64,000 bases of DNA from assembly GCA_051362555.1 (NCBI GenBank), contig CM120648.1, forward strand, positions 20,084,587 to 20,148,586, given 5' to 3'. This stretch comes from Lingula anatina (taxonomy: Eukaryota > Animalia > Brachiopoda). The notes under the pieces were generated by a model. It did no database searches. It was not told the DNA's origin and saw only the letters and a program-made list of their open reading frames with translations. Shown piece by piece: positions 1,738 through 64,000 of this stretch. Both the position numbers and the translations under genes were made by a program. The first letter of the stretch is position 1. Each line of letters starts with the position of its first letter.

Positions 1738-1758
1738 GTCTATGACGAGTCAACTCAC

Positions 1759-25425: not shown

Positions 25426-28400
25426 AACTGGAAGATTAAAAGTTTGAATAGCATCTTCATTGGAATTATATTTACCTCAAGCTCTGCCAAGGAGGTCATA
25501 TTTTCACCCCCGTTTGTCTGTCATCCACATAACACAAAAAGTTATGGACTGATTTTGCAGAAATTTTCAGGAACTGTCGGAAGTGGGCCAAAGAGGACAA
25601 TGATTAATTTTTGGTGGTGGTCTGGAACAATAATCAATCAATTATCAATAATAATCAACAATTTCTGCCTTGACAGAGGTCTGCACTCTCAAAGTGCTTT
25701 TCTAGCTACGTTATGTTTTCCTTTATAATTTTTTCTCAAACACTTGCATTTGTGACTTTTAACTCTCATCTGCCTGGGGCTCTGCACATTTTCTGTATTT
25801 CCACATAAGCAGTTGTATTGTTTTTTATGTCTTTAAACATTATGTAATATTATTTTATGCACTGTCATCATTTTTCAAATATTGAGAGTTTCATAATGTG
25901 AATTTGAACTCTCATGGTCCTGAAACTGTAATTTTATTGAAGGGGTGGACCATCTTCTGGGTCTTCCTGAAGACAGTCAGGTTATTAAGTTTATATTGAC
26001 TGGTATCTATTTTTTTCTGTTGGAAGACCATCAAAATGGAGGATGGATCAACATAGATACTTTGTAATACTGTCAGAAAATATCTCTGGGTCCGCTCCTG
26101 TTATTGACCATGTTACCTGTTGTGCAAGATTAAAATTCAGTGTTGACTGACAGTGCTATTATAAGCATTATTTATTATTGCATCAAAATTGACAAAATGA
26201 CCTTTTTTGCATCTTTATTTTCTGTTTTTTGTCTGTACATTTGACAGCTTTGCTGCCTTGTTTTTTTTTTAACTAGTAAGCAAAATCTCTTACACTGCTA
26301 CAGCACATCATCTACTTGCTACAATTTTTACATCTGATGGTTTTTAAATTAAAGCTTACTGTCCCTGTGATTCATCAGCTGAGATTTTTTTTTTTGAATA
26401 AGTCATATTGTGTAATATTATTCTGTGTTGTTGTTAAAGGGATAACAATTGTTTGTATGATATCCATATTTACTAATAAATATATTGTAAACAACTCATA
26501 AAAATATAACAAATTATGTTTTACCACTAAAATGGCAGTCAACACATTTATTCGTACCACCAGCCTGTAAGTTGTTGGTACTCCTAATTTTATTCCCGAC
26601 CCGTCTCATACAGCTCCACTAGCTCCGCATTCTGGAGCTGGATACAAGTCACCATTCTCCTCCTAGACCCCAAGGACCCATGTCCCCATCTCTTGGATTT
26701 AGGTCACATATTATCTCAATTTGAACCCTTTTTTTTGGCTCAGTTGGTGCATTATCCTGGGCATGACGTTCGTTGAAACGCACCCTTGTCAAAATTTTTG
26801 AAAATTCGATGCCAAATATCTCTCAAACCAAAGGAATTATCGGAAAAATTACTATAGAATTTTGACCGAAAGTCATATTTGTAGATTCCAGATATGCCCT
26901 TGGATTTGACAGTTGACCTTTATCTCAAGGTCAAACAGGCCAAAATCTCCAAAAAATGGGGATTTAAAAAAAATATGTTTGTGCCAATTTTTAGAAACTA
27001 CACCGACCTAAGTGGGGGGATTACAATTTGGGACTTCTTCGGGAGTTTGGGGTCAATAGGTGCATTTTCACAGGAGAGGCAGCCGTTAGATGCCAAAGCT
27101 GAAAACTCTCTATTAAACCAGAACCCTAAATACAAGAGACCTCTTGTTTTTTGCATTTCGTAGAGCTTGTCAAGCTCAATTGATACGTACTGGGGTTGGA
27201 ATCCATTTTTTTGTTTGTTTTTGATATGTAGGTTAGGAGTTGTGCTATATAAAAAAGTACATTTCAATATTCAGTAGTGAAGCAAAATGTGAAATACTCA
27301 AAAACTGGCAGAGATACACCCATGGTTACTATTGACCTTGAATAAGAAGTCACATACTGGCAGCCAAACTGTGACCTTGAAATTGACCTTTGACCTAGTT
27401 TTTCATCTTAAACTAAGTCTTGCAAATTTTTTGCCTCTTTTATCTGCAAAAATGGCAGAGATACACTTTGTGTGCAAATCGACTTTGTGATTTATGAAAA
27501 ATGTCTGTATACTTCACTTTGTTCTTCAGCAGTGATTCAGTATCCAGATTACACACCCTTTTTATCTATCTGTCTATTTTACTCGAAGTTTGTTTTACCC
27601 TGATATAAATAACGCACCATAGTATTTTTGGGAATTTCTCAATTCAATTCAAAAATTTAATTAAGCTGCGATTTATCGACTTTTGTCATCGTGAAAATGT
27701 GAGATTTTACATAACACACTGTTACTCTCAAGCACATATGCAGGCATCCACCTCTCTAGATTTTCTCTCGTTTCCTCTCTGCTATCACTTCACAATAAAT
27801 ATAACGTCTGCAAACATCATCGTTCACCTTATCCATGAGTCCTTTTGTCAATCTGAAGCATAACATATGTATTACCAGGTGAGTTTAATGAACGGCTTCG
27901 CCGATTGTGTGAAAGTGGTAAGATTCCAGTATACCGACAGCGAGTAGCTATTGTTGGACCTTACGGTGTGGGAAAGACTCATCTCGCCAAGCGCCTCATC
28001 CATGAGGAATATATCAAAGAAGAAGATGCAAATACAACTGGCGTGAATATATACCGCCATAGGTGTGTTGTCCATAAAGCTGGCCGATCCTGTTGGATCA
28101 GAGGAAAAGGTAAGCAGAATATAGGAAAATGGTAGACACATATGGAATTTGTTTATAAAGAATACAAAGAACAGAAGATAAGACATTTTCAATTTTACCA
28201 CATAATTCACAATAAGGAATTATACATACATGTACGTGTGGGTGTCGAAATGTGTCCTTCCATATCTTAGTATGGTAGACGAGGGGCTGAGTGAAAAAGT
28301 ACCTAAATAAGTGGTGCCTTTGTATTGTTATCAATCATTTGACATACATGACACTTTACAATATACTACTATAGCCCATTGATTATTTTTTAACTGGGTA

Positions 28401-31400
28401 CAAACACGATAATTTCATTCTCTGTAAAAACACCATGCTTTATTTTACTCAATATTGAATTAAATTTTTCAACGGTGTAGCCTGATACGTACACTCAGAA
28501 AAGGTACATTTAGATGCAATGCTTGATCTAACTGTATGATCCTTCCAACTATTCTCAGATGATCCAAAAGACCAGTTTGCACAAAATATGGCAATTGGAG
28601 TACAGAATTCAGATACGTTTTGCCAGCCGGACTTAACAGTATTAGACCAAACGCCACTAGAGGAATCCCTACCAGATTCGGAAGTGAATATTAATAACAT
28701 GCTGACAAATAGAGGTATTGTACATGATTGTCTCGAATAGTTCATCTTGGTGCAATTTAAACAGATATTTGTACAATGTAGTTATTCTTCTTTTTTGCCA
28801 AGAGATTCCACCTTCTATGTTTTTTTTTTTCGTTGGCCATTCCACATATATGTGCCTTGAAGACAGCATCCCAAATTTTATTTTATATGTTTAAATTTTG
28901 TAAAGAAATTCCTTTCTAAATTCTTTTATCTTAGCCATGTTTTTGTTTACTTTAAAGTTGAGTCATTTTCTGCTAGAATGGTGTTTGATATTATTCTTCT
29001 CTTTATTCTACAGCCGCTCCCCCTGATGACAGTGAATTACCTGCCTCTCCTGACAAAACAGCAGGTAAATAGTGCACATGTAGTAAAACAAGATTCTCGT
29101 GTATTCTTAGCTTGCCGATTAGGTATGTGAGTGTCTACATTCTTATTTTCATCAAACTGGGACTTAGAACTCACACTGGCATGAAGCTCAGAGGTAATCA
29201 AATTTTCTTAAAGCAATAATAACTCTTCGTTTTGGCCAAAAAATGAATTTTCCTGGAGTCAACAACAATTTTCCCACACTTACCAATAGTTAATGAATCT
29301 ATTTTTATATTCAAAGTTAGTCCCTGGTTTTTTTTCAAAAAGTTTGGTTTTTAGTTAAAATCTCTTAAGAGATTTTACCACAGTATAGCCATCAATGGAG
29401 GTCACGTGATCTGAAGACAAGCTCAGATATCAGAATAATAGCTATAACGGCTGTTTTCGTCGTAAAACGGAATATATTATATTTCTATGAGTTATTCACA
29501 ATGTTTTTATTGTGAAATATAGATTTCATACGAAGAGTTATTATCCCTTTAATGTCCATGTTTTTAATAGAAGATAATTAAAATTTTGTGGTATTTATAC
29601 AGTTGACCATTATGTTATATTGCATCAAAAACCTACTTTGTGCACTATCACCATAACGTTATAAAAAGAAAACTGTTACCTATTTTTTTATTTACAAAAA
29701 TGGTTCTTAGGATTGACAAACAGCTTAAATTAGAAAACCAGCTCTTTTGAATTATTGTTTTAATCGAATTATGCATTTTTTGTGAAATTTCTATTTATCT
29801 CATTCTGGTGTGAGCTTCAACTCTCATGGGCCTGAAGCCTTATGCTTTTACTTACATCGTTATATACTATTGTGCATAATTAAATTTTGAGGTTGACTGT
29901 GCAGTTAAGCATTGTATTACATTAGAACTGACAGCCTCCTATTTTGTGCATTATTATTTTCTGCTTTTTTAAAATTGTGACTTAGATATTTCATGGGCCT
30001 GAATACCTTTGCTAGTCACATTTGGGTGACAAGCCTCTAATCTTCCATTGGGTAACTACTAGCAAAATTCAGAACTATAAGGTCACTTGCCTAAATTAAG
30101 TTTCAAGTGGCAATAAAATTAGACATGTTGAGATTCCCTGTAAACTCCCATAGGTTAAGTTCTCTGCCAGATAACAGTGTCCATAATAGGGAAGCAGTGA
30201 TAATTATGCAGATAAATGTTGTTTAATTTTGCAAATAAGTTTTCAAAAAATTATTTTGTATAATGCCAACATTAATGCTAGTTTGAAAAGCAGCTTTACT
30301 GGAATGTTTTGTTTTTAATTTTTTCAAACACTGAGGGTTTCAACTCAATTTTTAACTCCCCTCCACCTGAAGCTCTGCACATTTTCTGTTTTCCCACATA
30401 AGCAGTTGTATTGGTATTTATGTATTTCAACATTATGTAACATTATATTATTCTATGCACTGCTTTCATATGTCAGATATTGTGATTTCATTATGTGAAT
30501 TTGAACTCTCGTGGTCCTGAAACTGTAAGGCCACACTTTTTTAATTTTATGGATGACATCCTGCGCGCGCACGGATTTTCGCCCGTTCTCCAAAAAAAAA
30601 AAAAGCCCCCCCCCCCCAGCCCCCAACGAAGTTGGTTGTCGCAAACGTTGTTATTGAATTTGCAAGGAAATGAGCTTTCTGCGCATGCATATTTTCGCCA
30701 CGTGGAAATGCGGCCACTTTGCTGTCAAATTAATCTCTAGGATTACTTTCAAATTACACAACAATAAAAGTCATCAAGAGAACGGGCGCCATCGTTTTGG
30801 ATTGGTATGCCATTGCTATTGGGCATGGAGATATCACCTTTTTACAATTGTGCGAAAGGCTGGCGGCGGCCGAAACATTTCTGTGACATTCTGTATAAAG
30901 CAGCACATTAATACCAGGTTTTCTGTAGCGAAAAAAGGTCGACAAGTGCGTCGAGGTATTTGGTGGGCTGAAGGTCGGACAGGCCACCTGACAGTTTAGC
31001 TGCTTCGTGTGAGTTGAAGTTGACAAAATGGCATCGTCTGAAATGACCTTTAATAGATTTGGTAGTATTAAGCATATCTTTGCATCATTTTTTAAACATT
31101 TCTGTGAAGTGTTCAAAATGTTTTAATATTCTGAGAATACAAATAAAGACGCACTGTTTGATTGATATTTGTTTTATTGATTGCTATACCAAATGAATGC
31201 ATGAAATAACCTTAATAGATTTGGTAATATGAAGTATATCAATTCATGACTTTTTTTTTACATTTCTACGAAGTATTCACAATGCTTTAATATTTTGAGA
31301 GCATGGATAAAGACATATTGTTAGTTTGATACGTGTTTCTGTGGTTAAATTTGTGTTTCCAGCTGTGTACTGACAGCATTCCTTTACTTAAGCAGTTTTT

Positions 31401-37400: not shown

Positions 37401-40400
37401 TTCTTAAGTGAGCTTTAGTGTGCTGTAGCACCTCTTCCGGTGAGGGCAACTGAGATTTCAACTGAATCTTTGTCTAAGTTACGAGGTGAATGTTTGTCCT
37501 TTCTGGCGGATTTTGTACCGTCGTTCACTAAACATTAACAGCAACCCCCAATCCATTACACAAAACATTTAAAACCACATCGGCAGAATTGGTGTTGTAT
37601 AGTTTATCCATAACATAGGCTCTCAGCTAGAATATTTTCATTTTGCCGCGAAAAGCAGAGTAATAATCAACATTTCCTTCCACATCTAAAAGCAATTTAT
37701 CGCAAAAAGCAACTGTGGGCATGCAGACCCCTTTCGACCAAACAGCTAGGAACTGCATTTAACAAGCAATGACCCCCCCCCCCTTGTATCTTCTACACGC
37801 ATGTACATTCCGGCATCTTGGAGATGTTCTATCAGCTAGATTCCGTCTCCAGTTGGAGTTGTACTGGGTTACTACGTTACTACTCTCTTTAAAGTTGAAA
37901 TTAAAACATTTAGAGAGGTTTAAAAAATGAAAAACACCGTGCGGGGTGGGTTGGAACACCCCTGACAGTGTTCCAACTGGCCCCATGTCAAATGTTCCGA
38001 CCAGCCCCCATGACGTCATGGCCTACTTATGACACTGTATTTCTTTAACACGTGGGAAGTGATTAAAAAAAACAAAAGCCTTTTGAACATCAAGGTGGCC
38101 CTAAACGCTATGCACAATTTCAGTGATATAATCCTTATACTTTAGTTTACAGCACGATGAATGTCAAAAATATGAAAACTTACTTCGAGTAGCGAAAATA
38201 AGTTTTTTTCGCATAAAACTTTTACTGCATTTTCGAAACTTCCACAAGTTTACCGGATGAATGACCATGCCACGTGACATTTTTATGCTGAAGGAGCACA
38301 TGATCGGTCTTGTGATTTAAGAAATAAAGCCAATGTTCCAACTTACCCGCGTTCCAACCCACCCCGCTCTCCCCTACTTATGATTGCCAAACTTTAAAAA
38401 AAGAAATACAGGACTAAAATGCAGCCTGAGTTGGAAAAGCAGTCTAATTGGCTTCTTTTTCTGGAAGTTATACATTTTCAAAGTGTGAACTTGTTACACA
38501 TTTTACTTACATTGGTATTACCTGTTGAGCATAATTAAAATTTGATGTTGAATTTGCAGTTTAACATAATGTACTTTTGCATCAGAATTGACAGTAGCCT
38601 ATTTTGTACATAGTTATTTCCTGTTTTTTGTCTGTACATTTGACAGCTTTGCTGCCTTGTTTTTGTTGGAAGACCATCTAAAATGGAGGGTGGATTAACA
38701 AAGATATTTTAAAATACTGTCAGAAAATACATTTGGATCCACTCCTGTTATTGACCATGTTACCTGTTGTGCATGACTTAAATTCAGTGTCGATTGACTG
38801 TGCTATTACAAGTATTATTTATTTTTTTATCAAAATGAGAAATTAACCTATTTTTTGCATCTTTATTTATTTATTTATTTATTTTGTCTGTAGACTCGCC
38901 CTTCAAGAAATCCATGCCTTCAAGAAATCGACGAAAACTGGAAGTGCGTGTTTTTTGCACCGTTTTTCCTGTCATGCCCATCGTAAACACTGTGTTGTCA
39001 AGTAAAATGAAGCGTCTGATACAAAGTATCAAATGCGGCAATGACGTGCTTGCTTGCGATGCGTTCAGTACACTTTGTTTACACTGAGAAGTCGAGGTCA
39101 GGAATGCATTATGTTTTTCTATGTAATTACGCAGTTTCAATTTTGATTAGTAAATTTTCTTTTATCTGCATGGTCATTTTCCGAACATTTGTATAAGCCA
39201 CGAAATATTTCTCATCGGAAAATCACCCAGCAGCTTTCCAAGTACAAGCAAGTGACGTCATGACGCACTTCCGGTTTTCGTCAAGATCTTGAAGGGATTA
39301 GCTTTACGGTTTGCTGCACATTTAAAGCGTTCTGTCTCAAAATGTACTCGACTGCTTGGATTGAAATTTACAAAACTTATTCTTCACATGATATCACACA
39401 TATGTGCTTAATTTGAGAGCTTTAGCTGTTATATATTTTCTACAGTGCCCATTCAAAATTGAAAAAGAGCTATTTTCTGTCGATTTCTTGAAGGGCAAGT
39501 CTACATTTGACAGATTTGCTGTCTTGTTTTATCTGGGTACAAACACGACAATTTAATTTTCTGTAAAATAAGTCTTCTTTATATGACTGAGGATTATTTT
39601 TCTTTTTGCCAAGGGATTCCACCTTCTATGTGTTTTTCGTTGGCCATTATACCTTATGTGCCTTGAAGACTGGGCACTTGATACCAATTATACTTGATCT
39701 TATTAGACGCATTTTCGATGTAATTTATTTATTTTTATACAATATTTATACAATATCCCAAAGTTATATGTTAAAATTTTGTAAAGAAATTCCTTTATCT
39801 TAGCCACGTTTTTGTTTACGTTAAGATTGAGTCATTTTCTGCTGGAATGGGGTTTGATATTCTTCTTCTCTTTATTCTACAGCCGCTCCCCCTGATGACA
39901 GGGAATCACCTGCCTCTCCTGACAGAGAAGCAGGTAAGTAGTGCACATGTAGTAAAACAAGATTCCGTCTTTTGCTCAGAATCTGCGAGTGTTGTTCTTA
40001 GCTTGTCGATTAAGTATGTGAGTTCCTGCATTCTTATTTTCATCAAACTGTATTAATAATGTTACATTAAAATTGACTATACCTTACAATTTTAATTGAT
40101 TTTAATTAATGTTAAAACATTCAGTGTTTATCACCCCGTTATGTTTTGAGCTTACCCACTTGTATTCATCAGAGAGGATACATTTTTAAGAAAAAATTTT
40201 TTTTTTGCAAATTGCCGTTAAACCTTCAGAAACAGACGAAAGCTTCTAATTTATTTGATAACTGTTTCACAAAGTTAATTGACACTAAACACATTCAAAT
40301 TTTGTGAATAATTACGATACTTTTTTATGCTAAAAAGTTTTATTTTAACTGCACTGTTTATTGTACAGTCCTTTTCAAAGGTGAAAGTGGATCTCATACC

Positions 40401-40556
40401 TCTGGGGAAGAAAACATGAGTAGTATAAGAATGTTGACGATATGTCGATGTATGAACAGTCCCTGACAAATGAAATAAATTAGATTGAAAGCAAGTCTAT
40501 AAAGATTAAGGTCTAGTCTCTCTCTCTCTCTCTCTCTCTCTCAAACCCCCCCCCCC

Positions 40557-40588
<32 letters not shown>

Positions 40589-41185
40589 TTTGAAGAAGGC
40601 ACATCAGCTGAAAACTCAATCGGGCGCTTGATACCAATTATACTTATTACATGCATTTGCAATCTAATTTATTTATTTTTATACAATATTTATACAATAT
40701 ACTGCGGGATTAATACGATGATTTAGATGAATATGCACGCATTGCAATACATAACAATATGCATTATGCTAAAATCAGTTAGTTCGGCCATAGCTTATTG
40801 TATTCTTCGCAGTGGCAGAAAGGGACCATCTAGATGATATTGACAAGGAGCTATTGGAAAAAATTGAGAAAATTGCCAGAGGAGAAGATGTGGAGCCAGA
40901 GAAACAGGTCACAATTTGGGATTTTGCAGGACAGGATGTCTACTACACCACGCACCAAACATTCCTCTCAGAGCGGATCATCTACTTGTTGGTATTCCGA
41001 CTTGACCAGGACCTCGATGATAAAATCCGTGTATACAGGGGAGAGAAGACACTGAAAGGTATTGTTGAGCTTTATGTATATATCTTTACATGTATAAGCT
41101 ACTCAGGGCCCTCATGTAAATGGCCTGTCAGCTGTGTGTAATTTCTTTATTAAAAGACCCACATTTTTAAATCTCTCTATTGCTC

Positions 41186-41268
<83 letters not shown>

Positions 41269-44200: not shown

Positions 44201-47200
44201 GCAAATTTTGCTTCCCTTTTATCTCCAAAACTGGCAGAAAGGTCCATAGTTACTATTGAAGTTGAATAGGAAGTCATATACTGGCAATCTTAATGTGACC
44301 TTAAAATTGACCTTTGGCCTACTTTTCACCATGAACTGAACTTTACGAATTTTGCTTCCCTTTTATCTCCAAAACTGGCAGAGATAGGTCCATAGTTACT
44401 ATTAAACTTGAATAGAAGTCATGTACTGGCAATTTACTGTGACCTTGAAATTGACCTTTGACCTACCTTATGATGAATTCACTTTGATTGTACCATTTTA
44501 AGTTATGTATATTTTTTGCATATTTTGAAAATTCTTCTTGATTGCATTTTTACAGCTTGTCAAGCACAAAACTGGTGGCTGTGTCCCTTACTTTGTGTAT
44601 GTGGGGGTCTATACGAATGCGCTTGCTCCAGCTGGTGGTACAATATTTGGAGGCGGTATCACCTCTCTGATCCTCTAGTTTTAAATGGTTCCGATGAGTG
44701 TTTTAGATTTTAATATTGTAGTAATTTTAAGGATTTTAGTTATATTATCCATTGTAAGCCGCCCAATAAGAAACATTATTATTATTATTATTATATTAAT
44801 TGGCGCTATTTTTTAGCAATGCTGAGGAGAAAACACTGATTAATATTCATCTTTGCAATTACCTCAAGGCTTTATATACATTTTTCAGAGTTTATTATGT
44901 TTTGGTTAAACTCAATCCATATGCACACTATTGGAAAATTGAGGGAAGAAGACAAAAATGCCATGCCATACGTCTTGATTATTGGAACTCATAAGGACAT
45001 GTTATGCGCACAGGTGAAAACGCTTTTCTTATCACAATTATTCAATTACTACCATACTTATTCTATGTATAATTTGTATCCCTTCAACCATATCACGATT
45101 CCTGACGAGTGACTTAATTATTTAGAAACTTTTCACTATGTGACTATTTGTGGATGGCATGATTTAATGTTGGGGGAAAAGGGTGTTCCTTGCCCCCTGT
45201 ACTCCATCCTAATTTTATATGTTCATTGCAACATACCCCATTTCTCAACTTGAACAAAGTGGACTATATCATATACACACATACACATACACACACCCCG
45301 GTAAATGTTTTCCTTTACACTGACAATTTAACATTATTATATGGTAATGAACAACAACTACAAAAATGTCTTAACTAGTTTTTATTCATAGGGCGACGTT
45401 GAAAAGATTTTTGATAAACTCAAGAAGTGTCTCGACGACAGGCAGGTACTCAAGGACCACGTCTACCGATATTTTGCCATAAGCAACTTGGCCGAAGATG
45501 ATGGGGAGTTCGCTGAAATAAAAAAAGCGATCGAAGATTTGTGCGGTTATAGCAGCAACAGTATTGCTACCGTTCAACATCTTTCAGTGAATTGGATTAA
45601 ATTGGAAATGAATTTGGCAGAGAAGAGTGAAGAAACCCCCATCATATCTATTGAAAAACTGAGGGAAATGGCAAAAAGGGTAGGACTCCCTGATGAAGAA
45701 TTACAAGAAAAGTTCATTCCTTACCATCACCGTCAAGGCGACATCCTACACTTCAAAGTTGATGGACTGGAAAATGTCGTCATAATAGATCCACTTTGGT
45801 TAGCAGATGTGTTTTCTGCCATCATGACCAATGCCAGCAGTCAACCTGGAGGCAGTCACTTTGATCTCCTGAAAGACGATCTGAAAAGAGGAGTGCTCAA
45901 TGAGGAGGTATTTGATGAATATCTAAAACAAATCAAAATGGCCGAAAAAAAGACTGAAATCATTCAACTTATGCTGCATTTCGACTTGATGTTAGAAATA
46001 TCCCAGTCAGTTGAAAACCCTCTGCCCGGGTCTGGAAAGAGAAGATTCATCGTGCCCAGTATGCTGGTATCCAATAACAGTGTAAATAACGCCTTGTCTG
46101 AGACGGATCCACAGAAACATTTGCTTATCGCATTCCCTCACATTCTGTTTCCTACCGGGTTGTTTCATCGTCTGATCATCCGTCTTCTTAGGAAGTATAG
46201 AGCTCAGGAATATAAACATAACATTCCAGTTGTTGGGTTTGACCATGCCTCCTTCCGTTTGGGAGACGAACAATCGGTGCTCCATCTCGCCATTGAAGAA
46301 AGGGCCATGAGAATGATGATAACAAATGCTACTGGAAACAAACCAAAACCTGACATATACTCCAACGCACGGGAAACCGTTGAAAAAGAACTGTCAACTC
46401 TTAAGGACACGTACTGTCCCAGGATGCAGTTAGGCTTTTGCATTCGGTTAAATGACAAAGGAAAAGATATTCCAATAAAAGCAGAAGACGTCCAAGAAAA
46501 CGATGAGATATGTAGATCTGTAGAGGACACTGAAATGCCAATCGATGTGACACCGTATCGTGTTTGGTTTTCAGGTAAGCATTAAAATTTTAGGTAGTTT
46601 TACTGTGAACAGACATTATGTTCCTGAATATAATTAGGGGTAATGTAGTCATTGAAATCGGTGATACTTTAACTGATGTAAATGCAACTAATAATATTGG
46701 GTGATGTACTATGATGTACATGAAGAGAATTAATATTTCAAATTGTTGCCAATAAACCAAACTTTATATATTTTAAAATAATGTAACTTGATAAATACCC
46801 AAAGGTATTTTTTATAATCCCCGAAAATGATATCTTTACAGATCTTATCAGCATTTTTCCCCTTGGCAAATTTTTGCCCATCGCCTTTGTTAGAACAGTA
46901 TAAATATCGCCCATAAAGTCATGCAATTTATATTTTAATCATTCCAACAAAACGAGTTTTACATGGGCATCAACGTCTGTGTGAGGGTAAGACTGTTGCA
47001 GTTCTATGTGCCGAACATTTTTATGTACAGAAACAGATTTGTCTGTACACATAGCCGTCACCTGCGTCTGTCGTCGCAGTTGCCGTAGGCCGTCACCATT
47101 GTCGCCGTTGCCGTGCACTCAGCAATAACACGATAAGTGGAATACCATTTTACATTTTGTATTCAAATTTGCATATATGCAGCACTGATAACACAATATA

Positions 47201-50200
47201 AGAAAAACAGATGGGCAAATTGCCATTATACTCACAGGATTGGTCAACCTTTCTGAAACGTAGGACGAGTTTGAAAATCAGCATAATCTGGCCATTATTT
47301 TATAAGTTATGCTGTTTTTTCACATTTCTTCAGATTCAATTCTTAGGCATGTTAACAGTCTCATTATTTAACTAATAAGATACCTAAAAGTGTTTGTTTG
47401 ATATTTCCTGCATCTTTACAACATTGTTAGTTGATTATGTAAAAATGATGGTAAACTTGTTATCATGTATTGTATAATAAAGTGTCAAAAATGGAAATAA
47501 ACTCATATAACTGCAGTTTGTAAGATTCAATCATTCACTATGATAATGTTCAGAAACTCAGAATGGACTAAATTGGACATAAAACACTGTTCTATTGATA
47601 TTTTTATGAAAATGGCAGTAAACTGTTAATTTTGTTATATGTTAAAAATTTGTTAAAAATGAAAAAAAAAATGCATTTCAGGACAGTGCTGTCTTGTCTA
47701 CATTTTGGCATTTTCAAGGTGTGACTTTGAAGTTCCATGGGCCTGAAGACCTTTGCTAGTCACATTTTCTGAATATCCGTGATACTAATATTTTATTATT
47801 AAAAATTGATGGTTATTATCCTGTTAAACATTATAATTCATTCCTTACCATCACCAGCAAGGCGACATCCTACACTTTAAAATTGATGGACTGGAAAATG
47901 TCGTCATAATAGATCCACTTTAGTTAGCAGTTGTGTTTTCTGCCATCATGACCCCGACCAGCATTCACTCTGGATGTAGTCGTGGGAGTCCTAAAAGAGG
48001 AGGTATTTGATGAGTATCTAAAAGAATTTAAGATGGCTGAAAAAAAGACTGAAATCATTCGACTTATGCTGCATTTCGACTTGATGTTAGAAATATCCCA
48101 ATCAGTTGAAAACCCTCTGCCTGGACATGGAAAAAGAAGATTCATCGTACCCAGTATGCTAGTATAAAATAACAGTGCAAATGAGACAAATCCGCAGAAA
48201 TATTTGCTTATCGCATTCCCTCATATTCTGTTTCTTACTGGGTTATTTCATCGTCTGACCATCCGTCTTCTAAGGAAGTATAAAGCTCAGCAATATAAAA
48301 ATAACATCCCAGTTGTCGGGTTTGACAGCACCTCCTTCCGCCTGGCTGATAAACAGTCGGTGCTGCATCTCGCCATTGAAAATAAGTCCATGAAGTTGTT
48401 TATAACTAACGCCACTGTACTCCCTCCAAAGACTCACGTGTACTCAGAAGCAACAAAAACAGTTGAAAACGAGTTGACAGTCCTTCGGGATACATACTGC
48501 CCCAGGATGCATTTTGGCTACAGCATCAGGTTTAACATGACGGACCCAATATTCCAATAAATGCGCATGGCGTCCAAACGGGCGATTCCATATGTGTGTA
48601 TGTAGAGAACTCTGACGTGTTGGTAGATTTGAGGCCATATCGCGTTTGGTTTTCCGGTGAGCAGTTTGAAATATCACGTAGTGTTGTTGTGAATAGACAT
48701 TAGGCCCTATGCTATTTTAACATAGAACATGCATTCCGTGTTAATTGGTTCACAGATCTTAACATTTTAAAAGATCCCTGATTACACATCATGTAATATC
48801 TGAAAACAGATACCATAAGAAAATTTAGGTTTGATTAGTTTTAATTTTCAAAATAATTTATCTGGAAAAAAGTATTAAGGATATTTCTGTTTTGTACATA
48901 TATTTTTGAAAATATTGATTTTTTACACAAACACTAATGACATACAATGTTAGTTATTTCGTATGAATACTCAATTGTATATGCAATAGACTAAAAAATG
49001 CTCAATTAGAAATTAATGGGAAAATTTATATTAATCTACCCTTCTTAAATGAACTAGGTACTTGTTTGTAACATTTTTATTAGAAACAAAAGGCACGATA
49101 TCGTATTCAGATTTTACTCAAACATGTTATGAATTAGCAACCTGTGATAACAAGTCATTAGAAACATGTCAGTGAAAAATAAAACCAAAATTAACAATCA
49201 TTTCGGAATGACACTTGGATTTTGAAAGGAAAAGTACGGCGTATGATAGGACATAAAGTATTTTGATGGGGCCCTAGAGGCCAAGTACCAATATATAATA
49301 TATATTAGGCCAATCTTACCATTTTAGCAGCCCCAGAGAATCAAGACCGTCGTGCAGCCAAGTGTCCTGAAAACGAGGCAAGTTATGAGCTTTTAAATAC
49401 GTTTGTGTCTAAGTACTGCGCAGCAAACACAGAACGTTATTATAACGTTACCATATCATATGTCCAAAAACATTTTGGTAACATTATAGGAACGTTCTGT
49501 GTTTGCTGACCATTATCCTCACTTGCACAAGTTTTAGTAAGACCATGAAATTAAATGTACTTGTATATACACAATCATAAGAAAAATTGGATACACTTAG
49601 GCATAAATGAGCACTTTTCACTCTGTTACACTTGCTATACGACCTCCGATATTTCTAATGATAAATTTCACATAAAGAGGGTGTATGTGTGCGTTTCAGT
49701 ACAAGAACGATTCCGAACCAAGAGGTCGTGCACTCATTATCAACAACAAGACATTTTCCGTGGACTGGCTTCCAGAACGTGATGGTACCGAGGTAGATGT
49801 TGTTGCCTTGAGGAAACTATTCCGTTACCTCCATTATGAGACAGACGTTATCAGTAACCTGACTGCACATGTGAGTTCATTAATAAGATCATGGTGTGTT
49901 TGTAATAAAACGAACATCGTGAAAGCCAAATGGCTTTTAGGTTTCAAAGACTAACATACTTTTTGGTGATATCTCAATATATTTATCAGTGACACAAAGA
50001 TGATACAATTGATACTTGAACCTTTTGGTTCAAAACAGGTGTACGTTGTCAAACAAACTTTTCGGTCACATTTTATTATGTTTATCTATTTCACTGCAAT
50101 ATATTTTTCTACTAAAATGAAGCTTTTCACTCGTTTCTGTTCATTGCATGTATTTGTATTTATATGAGAGATGTACGGTACACTGAATAGTTATACAACA

Positions 50201-53159
50201 TTGGTCAAAAAGGTTGTCCCACCCCTATTTCCATGTACTTTAAAAACCAACCCCATAAAAACCTGGGCCAAATCCCCCATCTTGTTTAAGAAGAATCGGA
50301 CAAGTCTTTTCAATTTTATAGACATTTCTTTACATCTGTAGAAATCACAGTGAAACAGTCGAATCGAGGGGTACCTCTTATAAATTTAACTAAATGGTAT
50401 AAAATGTGTATATTTTCACCACTATTTTGTTTTTTTTTTTTTAACCATGAATCATCTTAGACACGGTATCCGTAATAAAAAGCACTATTTCTAACAGTTC
50501 ACAGCTGTGAGGTGATCATTTGTAAATAAAAGTACATGGAAATGGGGGTGGGACAACCTTTTGACCAATGTTGTATACAAACAGACATGGCGTACAATCT
50601 ACAAATATACCACCATATGTCCGTCCTCGGTGGCTACTGCCTTTCACATTCTCTGTTAGCGTCAAGTATGAATTGATGCTTTACGCTGTCGTTGATAACC
50701 CAATTCCGTACGTACCACGTCTCTGCAGTCATTGCATGCTATTTCGTTTGAAGTACACTATGTTTTTATGTCACTTCTTCTTTTATTTTAATGTGTAAAG
50801 GAAATGAAGGAAGAAATAGAACAAGAAAGTCAAAGAGACGATCACAAGATCTATGATTCTTTCATCTTGTTTCTACTGAGCCATGGTACCGAGGGTGCTG
50901 TTTATGGAACGGATGGCTATCCTTTACCCTTCAAATATATCAAAGCCATTTTGAATAACAGGAACTGTCTTGGCCTGTCGGGCAAACCGAAAATGATATT
51001 TATTCAGGCTTGCCAGGGAAGTAAGTTATGGAATGTATTACACAAGCTTGAATACCTGCGATGAAAATAACATGCAAAATTATTCAACAAATGTATTGAG
51101 ATATTAAACTGTATTAACAGTTTGTCTCCTTTAAATTATATTCAGCCACACGAAACGAATGACGCTTAGTATTATGTAATTGTTTAATTAGTTAATACTG
51201 ATATCAATTCTAACTTATATGTAAACATGTAATCCACATAAGGGTGTATGGGGTATTTCATTTTTTTTCCATATTTGCCCAGAGATGTTGGACAGTGGGA
51301 CACTGCTGGACGGACAAACAGTTCGACAACCACAGCAAGCACCACCTGCAGCAAACCTTGGCGATGAGGTATCCGATGCGCCACACGAGATTCCAAAGCC
51401 ATCCAATGATCCGACGATGTCCGATTTTCTCGAAGTCCATGGGACTTCACCAGGTACTTTAACCGTGTTTCTTTGTATGCCATTTTACTTAGGCCTTACA
51501 AATGTGTTTTTCATCAGAAAAAAAAATCAAAATGATAAGGTGCACGTGGTGATGCTGGGATTATGGCATTTTGCCTCAGGTAGAAGATGGTGTGCATTTT
51601 GTGGTCTTTCGACATATTGTGGAGAACTATATTGTACGTGTATACTTTAAAATGCTCACTACATTACTGCACCAGTAAATACTGAAAATGGTGCATGTAT
51701 TTTTATACAGTATCAAATAAAATATATGTGCCAAATTTAATTAAAATTTACGTACATTTTTGCCATAATGCTTTTAAAAATGCGTTCAAGATCACTACGA
51801 AAAACGAAAGTGTGTCGAGACGTTACCTAATTGTATTTGGGAAGCTGTCAGACGATTTCTTTCGAAAAAAGACTTTGTATCTTATGCAAATGTTGAGAAA
51901 AAAACATGCCGTTTATGGAAAATTCAATTATCAAAATTTAAACTACGTAATTCGACAGATTTTAATTTAATTTAATTTAAAAATCGCTATCGTGTATTTC
52001 TGACATTGAATTCTCAGTGTGCACAAAGTGTAGGCATCGAAGGCATTCATGAATGTCGACACGTTTGATTCTTTGAATCAGACGCTTCATGTTACTTGAT
52101 AGCGCAGAGGCACGCCAGGGAAAACAGAGGAAGAAAAACAAGTTCTGATTTTTCTTGATTGAAGGCTTCGATTTGTTGAAGGGCAATTCTGTATGGCCTG
52201 GTTTCCAAAGATCGTGTGGCAGGCATATCAGCAAAACAAAATGCATCGCCAAGGACCCGAATGCCATGGCAAAATGTTTTAAGTTTACTTTGTTATTTTG
52301 ATACAAATAAGCTTCCGGTTGACATAGATTTGACTGGTCTCCAACTTTCCATGCTGCACTGTGCCTGACCGAAAAAAAAAACCCCTTAAAATGAGTAGTG
52401 ATTCAGTGTTCCAATGATGCCTGCGATGGCTAGAAACGTGACCCGTATTATTGGCCTTTTGGAGATCATTTCAGGTCGGTTCACTGTAACACTATCGGCA
52501 AATGTACTTTACTAATAGTTCCTTGATCTATGCGATTTATGAAATTTGCTTTTCCGCACTCTCAGTGAGACTAAGTACTGTTATATTAACAAAATAAAAA
52601 TAAACAGTACCGTTGCATCTACGAGTAAATAATACGTTAAGGCTTCAGTATTTTCTGTTTCAGATTACGTATCTTGGCGACACACGGGAAAGGGAACATG
52701 GTTTGTTCAATCCATTGTCGATACATTTTATCGTGAAGCACACAAATATGACGTTTTACAAATGTTGGTGAATGTAAGTACTGAAATAACATGAACTATA
52801 TTATTTTACATTGAAAGTGTGTTAAATTCATTAGAACACCAATCAAATATAAAACATAGCTGCCAGAAGAAGTGACTTGACGTAAGAGGTGACTTATGTA
52901 AATACAGTCCAACAGGCACAGACTTTTTAAGAACCAGCGAAATGCTCTTCTGTTTATTTTGACAGTTTAATCAGAACTGTTCACTTTATGTAATATTTTA
53001 TTTCACCAGGTCAATCACGCGATCTCTCAAAAGCAAACAATAGAGGGCAACAAACAGGCACCAGAGATAGTTACCAGCTTACGAAAGAAAGTTTTCTTCA
53101 ACATAACTCCAGGTAAGCAAAAAGAGTCGCATCTTCCCGAGGTGTATTCGGCCGAATAA
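10007..53159 (+). CDS. Multi-exon NHL-Roc-COR-caspase (Roco-caspase fusion) gene, ~1279 aa excluding the TE insertion
   Basis: Exons 10007-10760+12160-12330, 27879-28109, 28559-28714, 29014-29064, 39883-39933, 40813-41058, 44889-45013, 45392-46574, 49328-49377, 49700-49870, 50801-51020, 51283-51453, 52664-52773, 53010-53159. All junctions are phase-compatible (GT-AG, one GC-AG) and total 3840 nt. Confidence 0.7.
10761..12154. mobile_element. Non-autonomous TIR DNA transposon (hAT-like CAGGG ends), 5-bp TSD TGATA
   Basis: TIR CAGGGCTCGACATTA versus reverse complement of the right end CAGGGCTAGACACTA; TGATA at 10756-10760 and 12155-12159; subterminal GGACAGGT repeats at both ends. Confidence 0.9.
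14243..26260 (+). mobile_element. Tandem/nested array of Helentron-associated HINE-like elements (family A)
   Basis: Repeated heads TTTTTATGTACAGACACAGATGTGTCTGTACA (subTIR plus inverted repeat) followed by a (GCCGAT/GCCGTC)n microsatellite at ~14248, 15166, 16347, 17207, 19479, 20535, 21934, 22850. Tails GTCTGTACAT plus hairpin CAGCTTTGCTG plus T-run at ~17075, 24040, 24220, 26232. Internal tandem repeats, e.g. 17290-17940. Confidence 0.8.
25471..25705 (+). mobile_element. Short HINE-like element (TTACCTC..GCCAAGGAGGT family)
   Basis: 5' ..CTCTGCCAAGGAGGT, 3' CCTTGACAGAGG plus hairpin GCACTCTCAAAGTGC plus CTAG end. Confidence 0.55.
26554..27470 (+). mobile_element. Truncated, diverged HINE family B copy
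   Basis: GTACCACCAGC head with homology to 33184-35499; 3' end missing. Confidence 0.7.
27879..28109 (+). CDS. Exon 2: Roc GTPase N-terminal half (G1 P-loop, G2)
   Basis: (G)EFNERLRRLCESGKIPVYRQRVAIVGPYGVGKTHLAKRLIHEEYIKEEDANTTGVNIYRHRC...; acceptor TACCAG, donor AAG|GTAAGC, phase 1-1. Confidence 0.88.
28559..28714 (+). CDS. Exon 3: Roc insertion region
   Basis: TTCTCAG|AT..., open 156 nt DDPKDQFAQNMAIGVQNSDTFCQPDLTVLDQTPLEESLPDSEVNINNMLTNR, donor AGAG|GTATTG, phase 1-1. Confidence 0.7.
29014..29064 (+). CDS. Exon 4: 51-nt Pro/Asp-rich micro-exon (AAPPDDSELPASPDKTA)
   Basis: Strong polypyrimidine tract plus TACAG acceptor; CAG|GTAAAT donor; phase 1-1. Confidence 0.7.
30529..31493. mobile_element. 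PIF/Harbinger-type (Tourist-like) MITE, TAA TSD
   Basis: TAA|GGCCACACTTTTTTAATTTTATGGATGACATCCT ... AGGATGTCATCCATAAAAATAAAAAAGTGTGGCC|TAA; a related empty site CTGAAACTGTAATTTT lies at ~25920. Confidence 0.85.
33184..35499 (+). mobile_element. Complete HINE family B element with internal ~146-bp satellite
   Basis: SubTIRs GTACCACCAGC / GCTGGTGGTAC, 3' hairpin GAGGCGGTATCGCCTC, CTAG end; inserted at a T-rich site in HINE-A with no TSD. Confidence 0.85.
36414..38374 (-). mobile_element. Internally deleted pogo/Fot1-like (Tc1/mariner superfamily) transposon, TA TSD
   Basis: TA|GGGGAGAGCGGGGTTGGTTGGAAC ... GTTCCAACCCACCCCGCTCTCCCC|TA. Minus strand keeps the transposase C-terminus IIRPFPKAHRR..RRKQCSAVLTDTPE and a PHD-like WVKCIVCLKWSHEDC..YICQNC. 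Confidence 0.85.
38893..39501 (+). mobile_element. MITE family M1, copy 2, inserted in a HINE-A 3' subTIR
   Basis: Host motif GTCTGTACATTTGACAG is split as GTCTGTA|element|TACATTTGACAG, showing the TA TSD. Confidence 0.9.
39883..39933 (+). CDS. Exon 5: duplicated 51-nt micro-exon (AAPPDDRESPASPDREA)
   Basis: Paralogue of 29014-29064 with intact TACAG acceptor and CAG|GTAAGT donor. Confidence 0.7.
40813..41058 (+). CDS. Exon 6: Roc G3 region
   Basis: ...KQVTIWDFAGQDVYYTTHQTFLSERIIYLLVFRLDQDLDD, the hallmark Roc motif; phase 1-1. Confidence 0.92.
41291..44678 (+). mobile_element. Complete HINE family B element with 146-bp satellite arrays
   Basis: Same subTIRs and 3' hairpin as 33184-35499; internal duplication and a nested LINE fragment. 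Confidence 0.85.
43349..43850 (-). mobile_element. 5'-truncated L2/CR1-group LINE 3' end
   Basis: Minus strand LKQLHWLPVNARILFKLL...GLAPDFICDLV..YTPNRTLRS...FGEKSFQYAAPHEWNKLPLDLRSISSVKDFKKALKTYLF with a (TTA)n tail; interrupts the HINE-B motif GACCTTTT|CTTTATTTTAATT. Confidence 0.85.
44889..45013 (+). CDS. Exon 7: Roc G4 region
   Basis: EFIMFWLNSIHMHT...PYVLIIGTHKDML (WLxSI and GTHxD Roc motifs); phase 1-0. Confidence 0.9.
45392..46574 (+). CDS. Exon 8: Roc G5 plus COR domain
   Basis: YFAISN...NWIKLE...FIPYHHRQGDILHFKVDGLENVVIIDPLWLADVFSAI...IIQLMLHFDL...RFIVPSML...FPTGLFHRLIIRLL are COR signatures; donor TCAG|GTAAGC. Confidence 0.92.
47022..47836 (+). mobile_element. Diverged, truncated HINE family A copy
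   Basis: TTTTTATGTACAGAAACAGATTTGTCTGTACA head and homologous body; abuts the COR pseudo-exon. Confidence 0.75.
47837..48656 (+). pseudogene. Degenerate tandem duplicate of the COR exon (3' two-thirds)
   Basis: Aligns to 45713-46574; stops TAG 47921-47923, TAA 48165-48167 and TAA 48558-48560; ends PYRVWFS with donor CCG|GTGAGC. Confidence 0.9.
49328..49377 (+). CDS. Exon 9: COR-caspase linker micro-exon with a GC donor
   Basis: TTTTAG|CAG NAGNAG acceptor; AAPENQDRRAAKCPENE; GAG|GCAAGT donor bridges phase 1 to phase 0 exactly as required. Confidence 0.7.
49421..49508. mobile_element. Mini-MITE (88 bp)
   Basis: 18-bp TIR CAGCAAACACAGAACGTT / AACGTTCTGTGTTTGCTG. Confidence 0.75.
49700..49870 (+). 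CDS. Exon 10: caspase large-subunit N-terminus
   Basis: YKNDSEPRGRALIINNKTF...ERDGTEVDVVALRKLFRYLHYETDVISNLTAH; phase 0-0. Confidence 0.93.
50196..50573. mobile_element. Tc1/mariner-type MITE, TA TSD
   Basis: TA|CAACATTGGTCAAAAAGGTTGTCCCACCCC... / ...GGGGGTGGGACAACCTTTTGACCAATGTTG|TA. Confidence 0.85.
50801..51020 (+). CDS. Exon 11: caspase catalytic His and Cys
   Basis: DSFILFLLSHG (His codon 50882-50884) ... LSGKPKMIFIQACQG (Cys codon 51011-51013); donor GGAA|GTAAGT. Confidence 0.95.
51283..51453 (+). CDS. Exon 12: caspase inter-subunit linker and small-subunit start
   Basis: KMLDSG...DEVSDAPHEIPKPSNDPTMSDFLEVHGTSP; phase 1-1. Confidence 0.88.
51740..52190 (-). mobile_element. Old diverged relative of MITE M1
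   Basis: Reverse complement AGAATTGCCCTTCAACAAATCGAAGCCTTCAA...AAGCGTCTGATTCAAAG resembles the M1 5' end; the left boundary is approximate. Confidence 0.55.
52664..52773 (+). CDS. Exon 13: caspase small subunit
   Basis: DYVSWRHTGKGTWFVQSIVDTFYREAHKYDVLQMLVN; phase 1-0. Confidence 0.93.
53010..53159 (+). CDS. Exon 14: caspase C-terminus
   Basis: VNHAISQKQTIEGNKQAPEIVTSLRKKVFFNITPGKQKESHLPEVYSAE*; AATAAA at 53158-53163; alternative donor CAG|GTAAGC at 53112/53113. Confidence 0.88.
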   Translation, partial: VNHAISQKQTIEGNKQAPEIVTSLRKKVFFNITPGKQKESHLPEVYSAE

Positions 53160-62461: not shown

Positions 62462-64000
62462 ATTAGTACCACCAGCGTGTCCGCTGGCGGTACTCATGGT
62501 TTTAGTCCCGACCCGTCTCGTACAGCTCCGCCGGCTCCTGCGGCTCCTGCGGCTCCGCTGGCTCATGCGGCTCCTGCGGCTCCGCAGGATGGCGTGGGAT
62601 ACAAGTCACCGTTACCGCTTCTCCTCCTAGACCGCAAGGACTTGTGTCCCCATCTCTTGGATTTTGGTCACATATAATCTCAACTTGAACCCCCTGGTCT
62701 TTTTGTCTCAGTCGGTGCATTGGCCTGGGCGTGGCACTCGTTATAATGCACCCTTGTCTAAATTTTTGAAAATTCAATGCTAAATATCTCCCATACCGAA
62801 GGAATTAAGTGAAAAATTTCTACAGATGGCTGACCGAAAGTCATATGTGGAGATTTCAAATATGCCCTTGGATTTGACCTTTGACCTTTATTTCAAGGTC
62901 AAACGGGCCAAAATTTTCTAAAAATGGGAATTTTTTGCTAAAAAATTATTATTTTATGCCGATTTTCAGAAACTTCACAGATCTTACTTATAATATTATG
63001 GACAGGTGTTACCCTTAGGGTCTTCTTTCATCTTCGTGAGTTTGGGGTCAATCGGTGCATTTTCACGGGAGTAGCGGCCATTAGATGCCAAAACTGAAAA
63101 CACTCTCAAATTCTGGAACTGTTAATGCCAGAGACCTGTTGTTTTTTGCATTTTGTAGAGCTTGTCAAGCGCAACACTGAAGGTGGTGTCCGTTTTTTGT
63201 TTTCGATACGGCTTAGGCATTGTACTATATCGACAGTTCAACATCCAATATTTAGTGGTGAAAATAAAATGTGAAATACTACAAAATTAGCAGAGATACG
63301 CCCATAGTTACTATTGAACTTGAATAGGAAGTCATATACTTGTAATCTAACTGACCTTGAAATTGACCTTTGACCTACTTTTCATGATGAACTGCACTTT
63401 GCAAGTTTTCTGATTTTTATATCTCCAAAACTGGCAAAGATATGCCCATAGTTACTATTGAACTTGAATAGGAAGTCATATACTTGTAATCTAACTGTGA
63501 TCCTAAAATTGACCTCTGACCTAATTTTCACCATGAACTGAACTTTGCAAATTTTCTAGCCCTTATATCTCTTAAACTGGCAAAGATACGCCCAAAGCTA
63601 CTGTTGAACTTGAGTAGGAAGTCATATACTGGCAATCTTACTGTGACCTTAAAATTGACCTCTGACCTACTTTTCACCATGAACTGAACTTTGCAAATTT
63701 TCTCTCCCTTATATCTCGAAAACTGGCAGAGATACGCCATTAGTTACTATTGAACTTCAATAGGAAGTCATATACTGGCAATCTTACTGTGACCTTGAAA
63801 TTGACCTCTGACCTACTTTACACCATGAACTGAACTTTGCAAATTTTGGTTCCCTTTTCTCTCTAAAACTTGCAGAGATATGTCCATAGTTACTATTGAA
63901 CTTGAATAGGAAGTCACATACTGGCAATTTACTGTGACCTTAAAATTGACCTTTGACCTACTTTTTACCATGAACTGAACTTTGCAAAATTTTGTTCCCT
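62462..64000 (+). mobile_element. HINE family B element (different subfamily), runs off the right edge
   Basis: GTACCACCAGC head, GGCTCC repeats, ~146-bp satellite monomers from ~63290. Confidence 0.85.

What the first reader, a model, noticed from the sequence alone, without database searches (positions are those of the whole stretch)
27879..53159. Roco GTPase (Roc-COR) fused directly to a catalytically intact caspase with no death-fold prodomain
Seen: 13 phase-compatible exons encode Roc G1 GPYGVGKT, G2 TTGVNI, G3 WDFAGQ, G4 GTHKD and G5 FAISN, then a full COR, then after a 17-aa linker exon a complete caspase (LSHG, QACQG, SWR). No CARD/DED/DD-sized segment lies between COR and protease. 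Known: Roco proteins (LRRK1/2, DAPK1, MFHAS1) use Roc-COR as a nucleotide-regulated dimerisation switch, usually coupled to a kinase; initiator caspases are activated by induced dimerisation. Inference: the GTPase cycle itself may control caspase dimerisation, making a one-polypeptide death or immune switch with no apoptosome, DISC or inflammasome adaptor. I know of no characterised protein with this architecture, though unstudied predictions may exist in invertebrate genomes.
Basis: partly seen in the sequence, partly recalled or inferred. Interest (0 to 1): 0.93.

Follow-up and report, generated by a model that had tools for sequence, protein, structure and literature searches.

The report
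Roco GTPase swaps RNase for caspase
In a lamp shell (brachiopod), thirteen exons read in frame as an LRRK2-type GTP switch joined straight to a cell-death protease with its catalytic residues intact; near-identical sister genes end in an RNase-type domain instead, so this is likely a recently recombined copy of a mix-and-match immune alarm, although a transposon splits its predicted sensor exon and the join to the protease was not seen in RNA.

Summary
Observation confirmed: 13 exons join into an open 970-aa Roc–COR–caspase frame with all named motifs and no death fold. The nearest proteins are from Lingula anatina. (1) The likely first exon, an NHL propeller at 10007–12330, is spliced to this Roc exon in RefSeq sisters and varies mostly on one face. 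Here a 1,394-bp transposon splits it. (2) The intact COR exon is 96–98% identical to genes that end in a HEPN RNase-type domain. The caspase's usual COR survives only as a broken copy in the next intron, so this copy is likely a recent effector swap. (3) RNA reads from sister copies show this COR type spliced mainly to HEPN; no caspase junction was listed. The architecture is not unique: it exists as RefSeq predictions in Lingula and Owenia, an Owenia ROC-caspase is mentioned in print, and bacterial Roc-COR-caspase proteins were predicted. This scan has already noted several paralogs in the same genome. I found no functional study. Likely mechanism: sensor, then GTP hydrolysis, COR dimer and caspase activation by proximity. 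This allele may be damaged.

The parts
10007..10760 (+). NHL beta-propeller exon, 5' piece (Met at 10007; AG acceptor before 9993); likely N-terminal sensor
   Evidence: Pfam NHL E 1e-14; 85-90% identical to P0167, P0169, P0011; closest solved structures TRIM3/TRIM2/TRIM71/Brat NHL
10761..12154 (.). 1,394-bp insertion with short terminal inverted repeats and a 5-bp target duplication, splitting the NHL exon; read-through stop at 10802-10804
12155..12330 (+). NHL exon, 3' piece, phase-1 donor at 12330, compatible with the acceptor at 27879
   Evidence: RefSeq sisters P0167 and P0169 join this end to the G1 exon
27879..28109 (+). Roc exon with G1 and G2
   Evidence: 97-99% identical to P0167-P0169
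28559..28714 (+). Roc insertion exon
29014..29064 (+). 51-bp insertion exon, copy 1
   Evidence: P0169 has both copies
39883..39933 (+). 51-bp insertion exon, copy 2
40813..41058 (+). Roc exon with G3
   Evidence: 45 RNA loose ends match its 3' end at 29 of 30 letters
44889..45013 (+). Roc exon with G4
   Evidence: joint to 45392 in 40 reads of run X4
45392..46574 (+). G5 plus COR-A and COR-B exon (intact; sister of HEPN-ending genes)
   Evidence: 96-97% identical to P0153, 98% to P0007 over its last 89 aa
47837..48656 (+). Broken second COR copy (5' part missing, stops at 47921 and 48165, two frame changes), of the type that precedes this caspase in P0158/P0161
   Evidence: 92-94% to P0158/P0161 over its two main pieces
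49328..49377 (+). 17-aa linker exon, GC donor
   Evidence: 100% identical in P0158, P0159, P0161
49700..49870 (+). Caspase exon 1 (S1 Arg in RDGT)
50801..51020 (+). Caspase exon 2 (LSHG, QACQG)
   Evidence: (100% to P0158)
51283..51453 (+). Caspase inter-subunit linker exon (candidate self-cut site EVSD/A)
52664..52773 (+). Caspase small-subunit exon (SWR)
53010..53159 (+). Last exon with stop
   Evidence: 95% to P0161

Best explanation
The 13 exons encode an open Roc-COR-caspase frame with no death fold, and the gene is likely a recently recombined member of a Lingula family of one-chain immune receptors built as variable sensor, Roc-COR switch and swappable effector. Shown: the frame and motifs; near-identical sisters carry an NHL propeller in front; the same COR type ends in HEPN in sisters; a broken caspase-type COR copy lies just upstream of the caspase exons. 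Inferred origin: unequal recombination put the front of an NHL-Roc-COR-HEPN gene before the back of a COR-caspase gene, and a shared phase-1 intron keeps the frame. Inferred working: a ligand on the propeller's variable top face, or clustering, would drive GTP hydrolysis. The GDP-bound or empty Roc-COR would pair through COR-B, as reported for C. tepidum Roco and proposed for LRRK2. The two tethered caspase domains would then dimerise, self-cut and trigger death or inflammation with no adaptor. GTP-bound would be the off state. This allele likely makes the full protein only if the transposon in the NHL exon is spliced out.
For: Open frame and intact motifs. COR-B and caspase folds in the sister model. 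NHL-to-G1 join in 2 of the 4 proteins found with the G1 exon (P0167, P0169). NHL 85-90% identical between copies against 97-99% for the next exon; 20 of 22 hypervariable columns fall on the d-a and b-c loops, which are 60 of 249 columns (Fisher p 4e-12; columns chosen after seeing the alignment). Those loops form the ligand face of NHL propellers (PMC4015489, passages). On the COR tree the window groups with HEPN-ending P0153 (100/100), and one clade of the four caspase-ending rows is rejected (p-AU 1.5e-6). Caspase is 95-96% identical to P0158/P0161 while COR is 75-78%. RefSeq P0159 models the same COR-end-to-linker join. Roc-COR-caspase also occurs in P0002, P0006, P0049 (Lingula) and P0012 (Owenia), with His and Cys kept in all four. 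HEPN sisters keep an R-x4-H motif in 7 of 7. Monomer-GTP/dimer-GDP model: PMC6337361, passages and section 11.
Against: RNA: the 32 loose ends at the COR donor in run X4 give a HEPN-exon consensus (9 of 30 letters match the caspase linker), and no caspase-linker row was listed. Agreement was only 0.74, so a minority partner is possible but unidentified. The reads carry other letters at 46527 (35 of 35) and 46118 (46 of 46), so they come from other copies or alleles. The other three runs gave 10-19 reads. The NHL exon reads into a stop at 10802 in this allele, and no Met lies between the insertion and the P-loop in the known exon pieces. RefSeq models are predictions. No biochemical data exist for any member that I could find. 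No ligand is known.
Confidence: 0.55

Rival explanations
1. This copy is a decaying pseudogene of the family. The transposon stops translation inside the NHL exon, so the open Roc-COR-caspase frame is a young remnant and no protein is made. The family mechanism may still hold for intact sisters.
For: Stop at 10802-10804; broken COR copy and many repeats in the locus; no reads with the window's own letters at two COR positions in run X4; the last propeller blade lacks a Pro kept in the three sisters.
Against: All 13 downstream exons keep frame and splice signals. The caspase has only 6 private changes against P0158 and P0161, none at the catalytic or S1 motifs. A consensus-like donor at 10800 with an acceptor at 12167 would remove the insertion in frame, though many chance GT/AG pairs are also in frame.
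Confidence: 0.35
2. The intact Roc-COR and the caspase are two genes. The caspase belongs to the broken COR copy and is now orphaned or silent. The intact COR ends at the stop just inside its intron, or the order is an assembly join of near-identical paralogs.
For: The caspase's usual COR type is the broken copy. Sister transcripts splice this COR type mainly to HEPN. The family has many near-identical copies, which assemblers can collapse.
Against: No HEPN exon lies in the window. The linker acceptor is the next phase-1 exon and keeps the frame. RefSeq P0159, 96% identical to this copy, models the same join.
Confidence: 0.2
3. The fusion is real and expressed, but Roc-COR does not act as a dimer switch. 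It holds the caspase back in cis, or carries it to a membrane or partner, as GTP state tunes the kinase in DAPK1 or LRRK2.
For: The Roco mechanism is debated, and LRRK2 dimers form also without Roc-COR (PMC6337361, passages). The strand-6 position at the caspase two-fold is Val as in caspase-3 rather than Phe as in caspase-9 (alignment; role recalled), so the caspase may dimerise on its own.
Against: The cassette replaces a CARD, and the other effectors in the slot are proximity-activated (established knowledge). The linker is short and flexible.
Confidence: 0.2

Closest known systems
Owenia fusiformis ROC-prodomain caspase CAH1787638.1 (Horkan et al. 2024, PMC11463336; passages, section 11, supplement rows and part 13 read)
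   Same: Caspase with a ROC region in place of CARD/DED, placed in the caspase-Y group; lophotrochozoan.
   Different: The paper names ROC only (no whole-word 'COR' in its main text), proposes interaction with kinases, and lists Lingula XP_013381226.2 and Owenia CAH1786849.1 with no prodomain. It describes no NHL sensor, effector swapping or test.
Prokaryotic LRR-AP-GTPase(Roc)-COR counter-invader proteins (Kaur et al. 2021, PMC8195603; section 15 read in full)
   Same: Fast-evolving N-terminal sensor, Roc-COR core, variable C-terminal effector including caspase and TIR; several paralogs per genome with different effectors; predicted only.
   Different: Animal, spliced gene; NHL propeller rather than LRR; true Asp-type caspase motifs; effectors exchanged at a shared phase-1 intron.
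Lingula RefSeq predictions P0158/P0161 (COR-caspase), P0159, P0153/P0007/P0001 (COR-HEPN), P0167/P0169 (NHL-Roc), P0002/P0006/P0049 (Roc-COR-caspase)
   Same: Together they hold every part of this gene at 85-100% identity.
   Different: None of those retrieved holds the whole NHL-Roc-COR-caspase chain. This copy joins a HEPN-type COR to the caspase cassette and has a broken NHL exon.
LRRK2 / DAPK1 / C. tepidum Roco
   Same: Roc-COR tandem; profile match to LRRK2 E 2e-40 and to C. tepidum Roco E 3e-33; COR fold Z 19.3.
   Different: No kinase; about 140 extra residues between G2 and G3; protease output.
Apaf-1/caspase-9 apoptosome and NLR inflammasomes (recalled)
   Same: Works like them: propeller or repeat sensor, nucleotide switch, caspase activated by proximity.
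   Different: GTPase rather than STAND ATPase; no death-fold adaptor; one chain; dimer rather than ring is predicted. Apaf-1 was not detected in Lingula (PMC11463336, passage).

Membership tests
Roco proteins | Roc GTPase with G1-G5 motifs | tested here: met
Roco proteins | COR (A and B halves) directly after Roc | tested here: met
   Pfam COR-A on the window exon; COR-B by fold on sister P0161, residues 1-318 to 3dpt, Z 19.3, rmsd 3.3
Roco proteins | GTP binding, hydrolysis and nucleotide-linked monomer-dimer cycle | not testable with these tools
   needs purified protein
Caspases (C14A) | His-Cys dyad (SHG, QACxG) and Asp-pocket Arg/Gln/Arg | tested here: met
   RDGT, LSHG, QACQG, SWR present; roles of these residues recalled; alignment to caspase-9
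Caspases (C14A) | Large and small subunits with a cleavable Asp-bearing linker | tested here: met
   disordered linker 469-509 in sister model; Asp sites listed; cleavage itself untested
Caspases (C14A) | Protease activity | not testable with these tools
   needs assay
CARD/DED initiator caspases | Death-fold prodomain | tested here: not met
   23 residues between COR and caspase; the upstream domain is an NHL propeller
LRRK/DAPK Roco kinases | Protein kinase domain | tested here: not met
   the 13-exon frame is fully accounted for by Roc, COR and caspase and ends in a stop
Prokaryotic AP-GTPase counter-invader proteins | Fast-evolving N-terminal LRR sensor | tested here: not met
   NHL propeller instead, though also hypervariable
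Prokaryotic AP-GTPase counter-invader proteins | Variable C-terminal effector across paralogs of one genome | tested here: met
   HEPN, caspase, RHIM-like, Death or none in Lingula paralogs
NLR / Apaf-1 (STAND) | NACHT or NB-ARC ATPase | tested here: not met
   Roc is the best family; NACHT and NB-ARC give only sub-threshold P-loop scores
TRIM-NHL proteins | RING/B-box/coiled-coil before the NHL | not tested
   an acceptor precedes the Met at 10007; RefSeq sisters start at that Met; no upstream exon was sought

The most novel reading that the evidence does not exclude
Lingula runs an NLR-like immune receptor family on a Roco GTPase. Propeller sensors diversify on one face, and RNase, caspase and death-adaptor outputs are exchanged by recombination at one intron. 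This locus is a swap caught in the act, with the displaced COR still in the intron. The caspase fires in the GDP-bound or nucleotide-free dimer, so it could also respond to GTP depletion. The transposon in the sensor is spliced out in frame (10800>12167) and leaves 13 new residues in a ligand-face loop, creating a new specificity instead of killing the gene.
Probability: 0.2. Interest if true: 0.85.

Novelty: new variant of a known kind. Interest (0 to 1): 0.58.

Why it matters
If right, animals have a second way, besides STAND ATPases and death-fold adaptors, to turn sensing into caspase activation, in a lineage where Apaf-1 was not detected. A caspase fused to Roc-COR would also give a direct enzymatic read-out of the debated Roco monomer-dimer cycle that underlies LRRK2 biology. 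This locus adds a snapshot of how effectors are exchanged. Its value is lowered by prior mentions of the architecture, by several paralogs already noted by this scan, and by the damaged sensor exon.

Tried and rejected
No whole genome is held, so paralog DNA and dN/dS were out of reach. The run search listed no RNA holder; nine raw-read runs were offered by species label. The caspase exons and the NHL exon were not covered by any read lay, so their junctions stay untested. A predicted homodimer of the COR exon gave no verdict (score 0.00 in two runs, alignment not used). A single-sequence model of NHL protein P0167 was unusable (pLDDT 40), so the top face was assigned from repeat position, not from a model. 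The ESM Atlas gave only leads under 0.9. The 35-row COR tree finished only in quick mode; a 9-row careful tree replaced it for the swap test. A HEPN exon or the 5' part of the second COR copy was sought in the window and not found. The splice scan had an off-by-one error and was redone; 237 in-frame GT/AG pairs exist, so frame alone is weak support for a rescue splice. Pfam found nothing on five repeat-derived frames. Rejected: a hidden death fold between COR and caspase; a start at 27879; uniqueness of the architecture. Paper searches found no functional study of a Roc-COR-caspase and no description of NHL-Roc-COR genes. One search was swamped by unrelated lymphoma papers, and subscription papers on Lingula immunity are not in the library.

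Full report
Observation. Using homologues to place the small exons, 13 exons from 27879 to 53159 join with matching phases into 970 aa with a single terminal stop. Eleven donors are GT and one is GC. Pfam supports Roc, COR-A and Peptidase_C14 on single exons. Between the end of COR and the first caspase strand lie 23 residues. The region after COR-A has no Pfam hit in the window, so I folded the sister protein P0161 with a 31-row alignment (mean pLDDT 82). Residues 1-318 match the C. tepidum COR (Z 19.3, rmsd 3.3, 268 aligned) and 333-591 match caspases (Z 30.5, rmsd 1.8, 218 aligned). No death fold is present.

Source and prior existence. The nearest proteins are from Lingula anatina, up to 100% identical per exon. 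The representative search gave 756 COR relatives; the best 150 were listed. Among 157 stored proteins, 4 have a caspase after COR: P0002, P0006 and P0049 (Lingula) and P0012 (Owenia). One more has an N-terminal caspase fragment and one is caspase only. The caspase-exon search added P0158, P0159 and P0160, and a cluster look-up added P0161. P0012 carries an N-terminal Bcl-2 domain (E 5e-23) and P0006 a weak one (E 0.003); their COR regions are 43% identical, so one Roc-COR-caspase layout is shared by a brachiopod and an annelid. Pfam scans of the remaining relatives show Death, DED, CARD, TIR, HEPN, GT4, OTU, trypsin, ankyrin, LRR, Ig and Neuralized domains around the same core. A kinase was listed for one protein, but lists were cut to five families for the largest proteins.

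The missing front. Exon 27879 opens in phase 1 and has no Met before the P-loop. Of 4 proteins found with this exon, P0167 and P0169 (97-99% identical) carry an NHL propeller joined directly to it, P0005 carries HEPN, and P0168 has an unassigned start. The window holds that NHL exon at 10007-12330 with a phase-1 donor. A 1,394-bp element with short inverted ends and a 5-bp target duplication splits it at 10761-12154, and read-through stops at 10802. A consensus-like donor inside the element (10800) and an acceptor at 12167 would restore the frame, but 237 GT/AG pairs do so by chance and none is tested. Across four copies the NHL is 85-90% identical, against 97-99% for the next exon. Of 22 columns with three or more residues, 20 fall on the d-a and b-c loops (60 of 249 columns; p 4e-12; columns defined after seeing the alignment). 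These loops are the top, ligand-binding face of NHL propellers (PMC4015489, passages). This pattern is typical of immune sensors (inference); the ligand is unknown.

An effector swap. The intact COR exon is 93-98% identical per segment to P0153 and 98% to P0007 and P0155 at its end; all three continue into HEPN_DZIP3. The caspase exons are 85-100% identical to P0158 and P0161, whose COR end is only 55-56% identical to the intact exon. Their COR type is present in the window as a broken copy at 47837-48656: 92-94% identical over its main pieces, with two stops, two frame changes and no 5' part. On a 9-row careful tree the window pairs with P0153 (100/100), and one clade of the four caspase-ending rows is rejected (p-AU 1.5e-6). 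P0002 has a COR 74% like the window's but a caspase only 43% like it and 52% like that of P0049, whose COR is 23-25% like either. The same linker-plus-caspase cassette follows a CARD in XP_013403374.2 (supplement of PMC11463336, by eye). The simplest reading is unequal recombination between clustered paralogs, with the frame kept by a shared phase-1 intron.

RNA. One lay succeeded, on 44690-47010 with 4 of the 9 offered runs. X4 gave 485 reads; X1, X3 and X7 gave 10, 18 and 19. X4 shows the joint 45013>45392 (40 reads) and 45 loose ends that match the 40813-41058 exon at 29 of 30 letters. At the COR donor, 32 loose ends give a consensus that translates to the HEPN exon start of P0153 and matches the caspase linker at 9 of 30 letters. 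Agreement is 0.74, against 0.97 for the upstream loose end, so a minority partner may be hidden; it is not identified. Every read differs from the window at 46527 (35 of 35) and 46118 (46 of 46), so these reads come from other copies or alleles. The result goes against a simple 'this COR always leads to caspase' but does not test this allele. RefSeq P0159 (96% identical) models the same COR-end-to-linker join, but it is a prediction.

Mechanism. Shown: the domain order and intact motifs. [quoted passage not shown] Recalled: initiator caspases, HEPN RNases, TIR, death folds and RHIM are activated by proximity; the HEPN sisters keep R-x4-H in 7 of 7. Inferred: sensor engagement promotes hydrolysis and COR pairing, which brings two caspase domains together; they self-cut in the inter-subunit linker (EVSD/A is the best candidate) and stay tethered. 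GTP-bound would be off, the reverse of a Ras switch. I give 0.55 to this reading, 0.35 to this allele being a pseudogene (compatible with the family mechanism), 0.2 to Roc-COR and caspase not being one transcript, and 0.2 to a non-dimer role; these overlap.

Comparison and novelty. Horkan et al. 2024 mention an Owenia caspase with a ROC pro-domain (PMC11463336; passages, section 11, supplement rows; preprint passages). Kaur et al. 2021 predict bacterial LRR-Roc-COR proteins with at least 24 swappable effectors including caspase (PMC8195603, section 15; PMC7159879 passages). An Aplysia survey notes ROCO domains in TIR and death proteins (PMC9334734, passages). My searches found no functional study and no description of NHL-Roc-COR-caspase. 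Supplements of PMC8195603 were not read and may list animal examples. The gene works like an apoptosome or inflammasome in one chain and is a true Roco and a true caspase, but it is not an NLR or a CARD/DED caspase. After my reading was formed, the scan's notes showed at least eight related Roc-COR-caspase findings in this genome and one in a feather star; they are unchecked and not independent support. What this window adds is the visible swap and the damaged sensor. Verdict: new variant of a known kind, interest 0.58.

Noticed in passing
window 10761-12154: Single-copy (in this window) non-autonomous-looking DNA element with short terminal inverted repeats and a 5-bp target duplication, sitting in a top-face loop of the NHL exon; it carries a consensus-like splice donor 40 bp inside its left end.
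   Followed up: partly
window 1-1749, - strand: 583-aa open frame with internal 8-aa repeats whose C-terminal part looks like a BEL/Pao retrotransposon Gag (recalled; no Pfam hit); runs off the window.
   Followed up: no
window 33987-35130, 41959-43140, 43923-44466, 54733-58753, 63283-64000: Arrays of a 146-bp tandem unit, and a second family of about 160-bp and 337-bp units at 14.2-24 kb; they fill the long introns and could promote unequal crossing-over.
   Followed up: no
window 29014-29064 and 39883-39933: A 51-bp Roc-insertion exon is duplicated with its flanks; P0169 has two copies, P0001 one.
   Followed up: partly
window 43530-43865, - strand: Fragment resembling the C-terminal part of a LINE reverse transcriptase (recalled; no Pfam hit).
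   Followed up: no
P0012 (Owenia) and P0006 (Lingula): Bcl-2-like domain, Roc, COR and caspase in one predicted chain, shared by an annelid and a brachiopod.
   Followed up: partly
P0002 and P0049: Roc-COR-caspases with SACQS in place of QACQG: Cys kept, the S1 Gln replaced, so specificity may differ.
   Followed up: no
   Followed up: no
P0004: Roc-COR paralog ending in a RHIM-like motif (Pfam E 0.007, below cut-off).
   Followed up: no
window 45002-45313 and 46562-47010: A few RNA reads in runs X1, X3 and X4 lie in the introns beside the COR exon; some RefSeq models also read into these introns.
   Followed up: no
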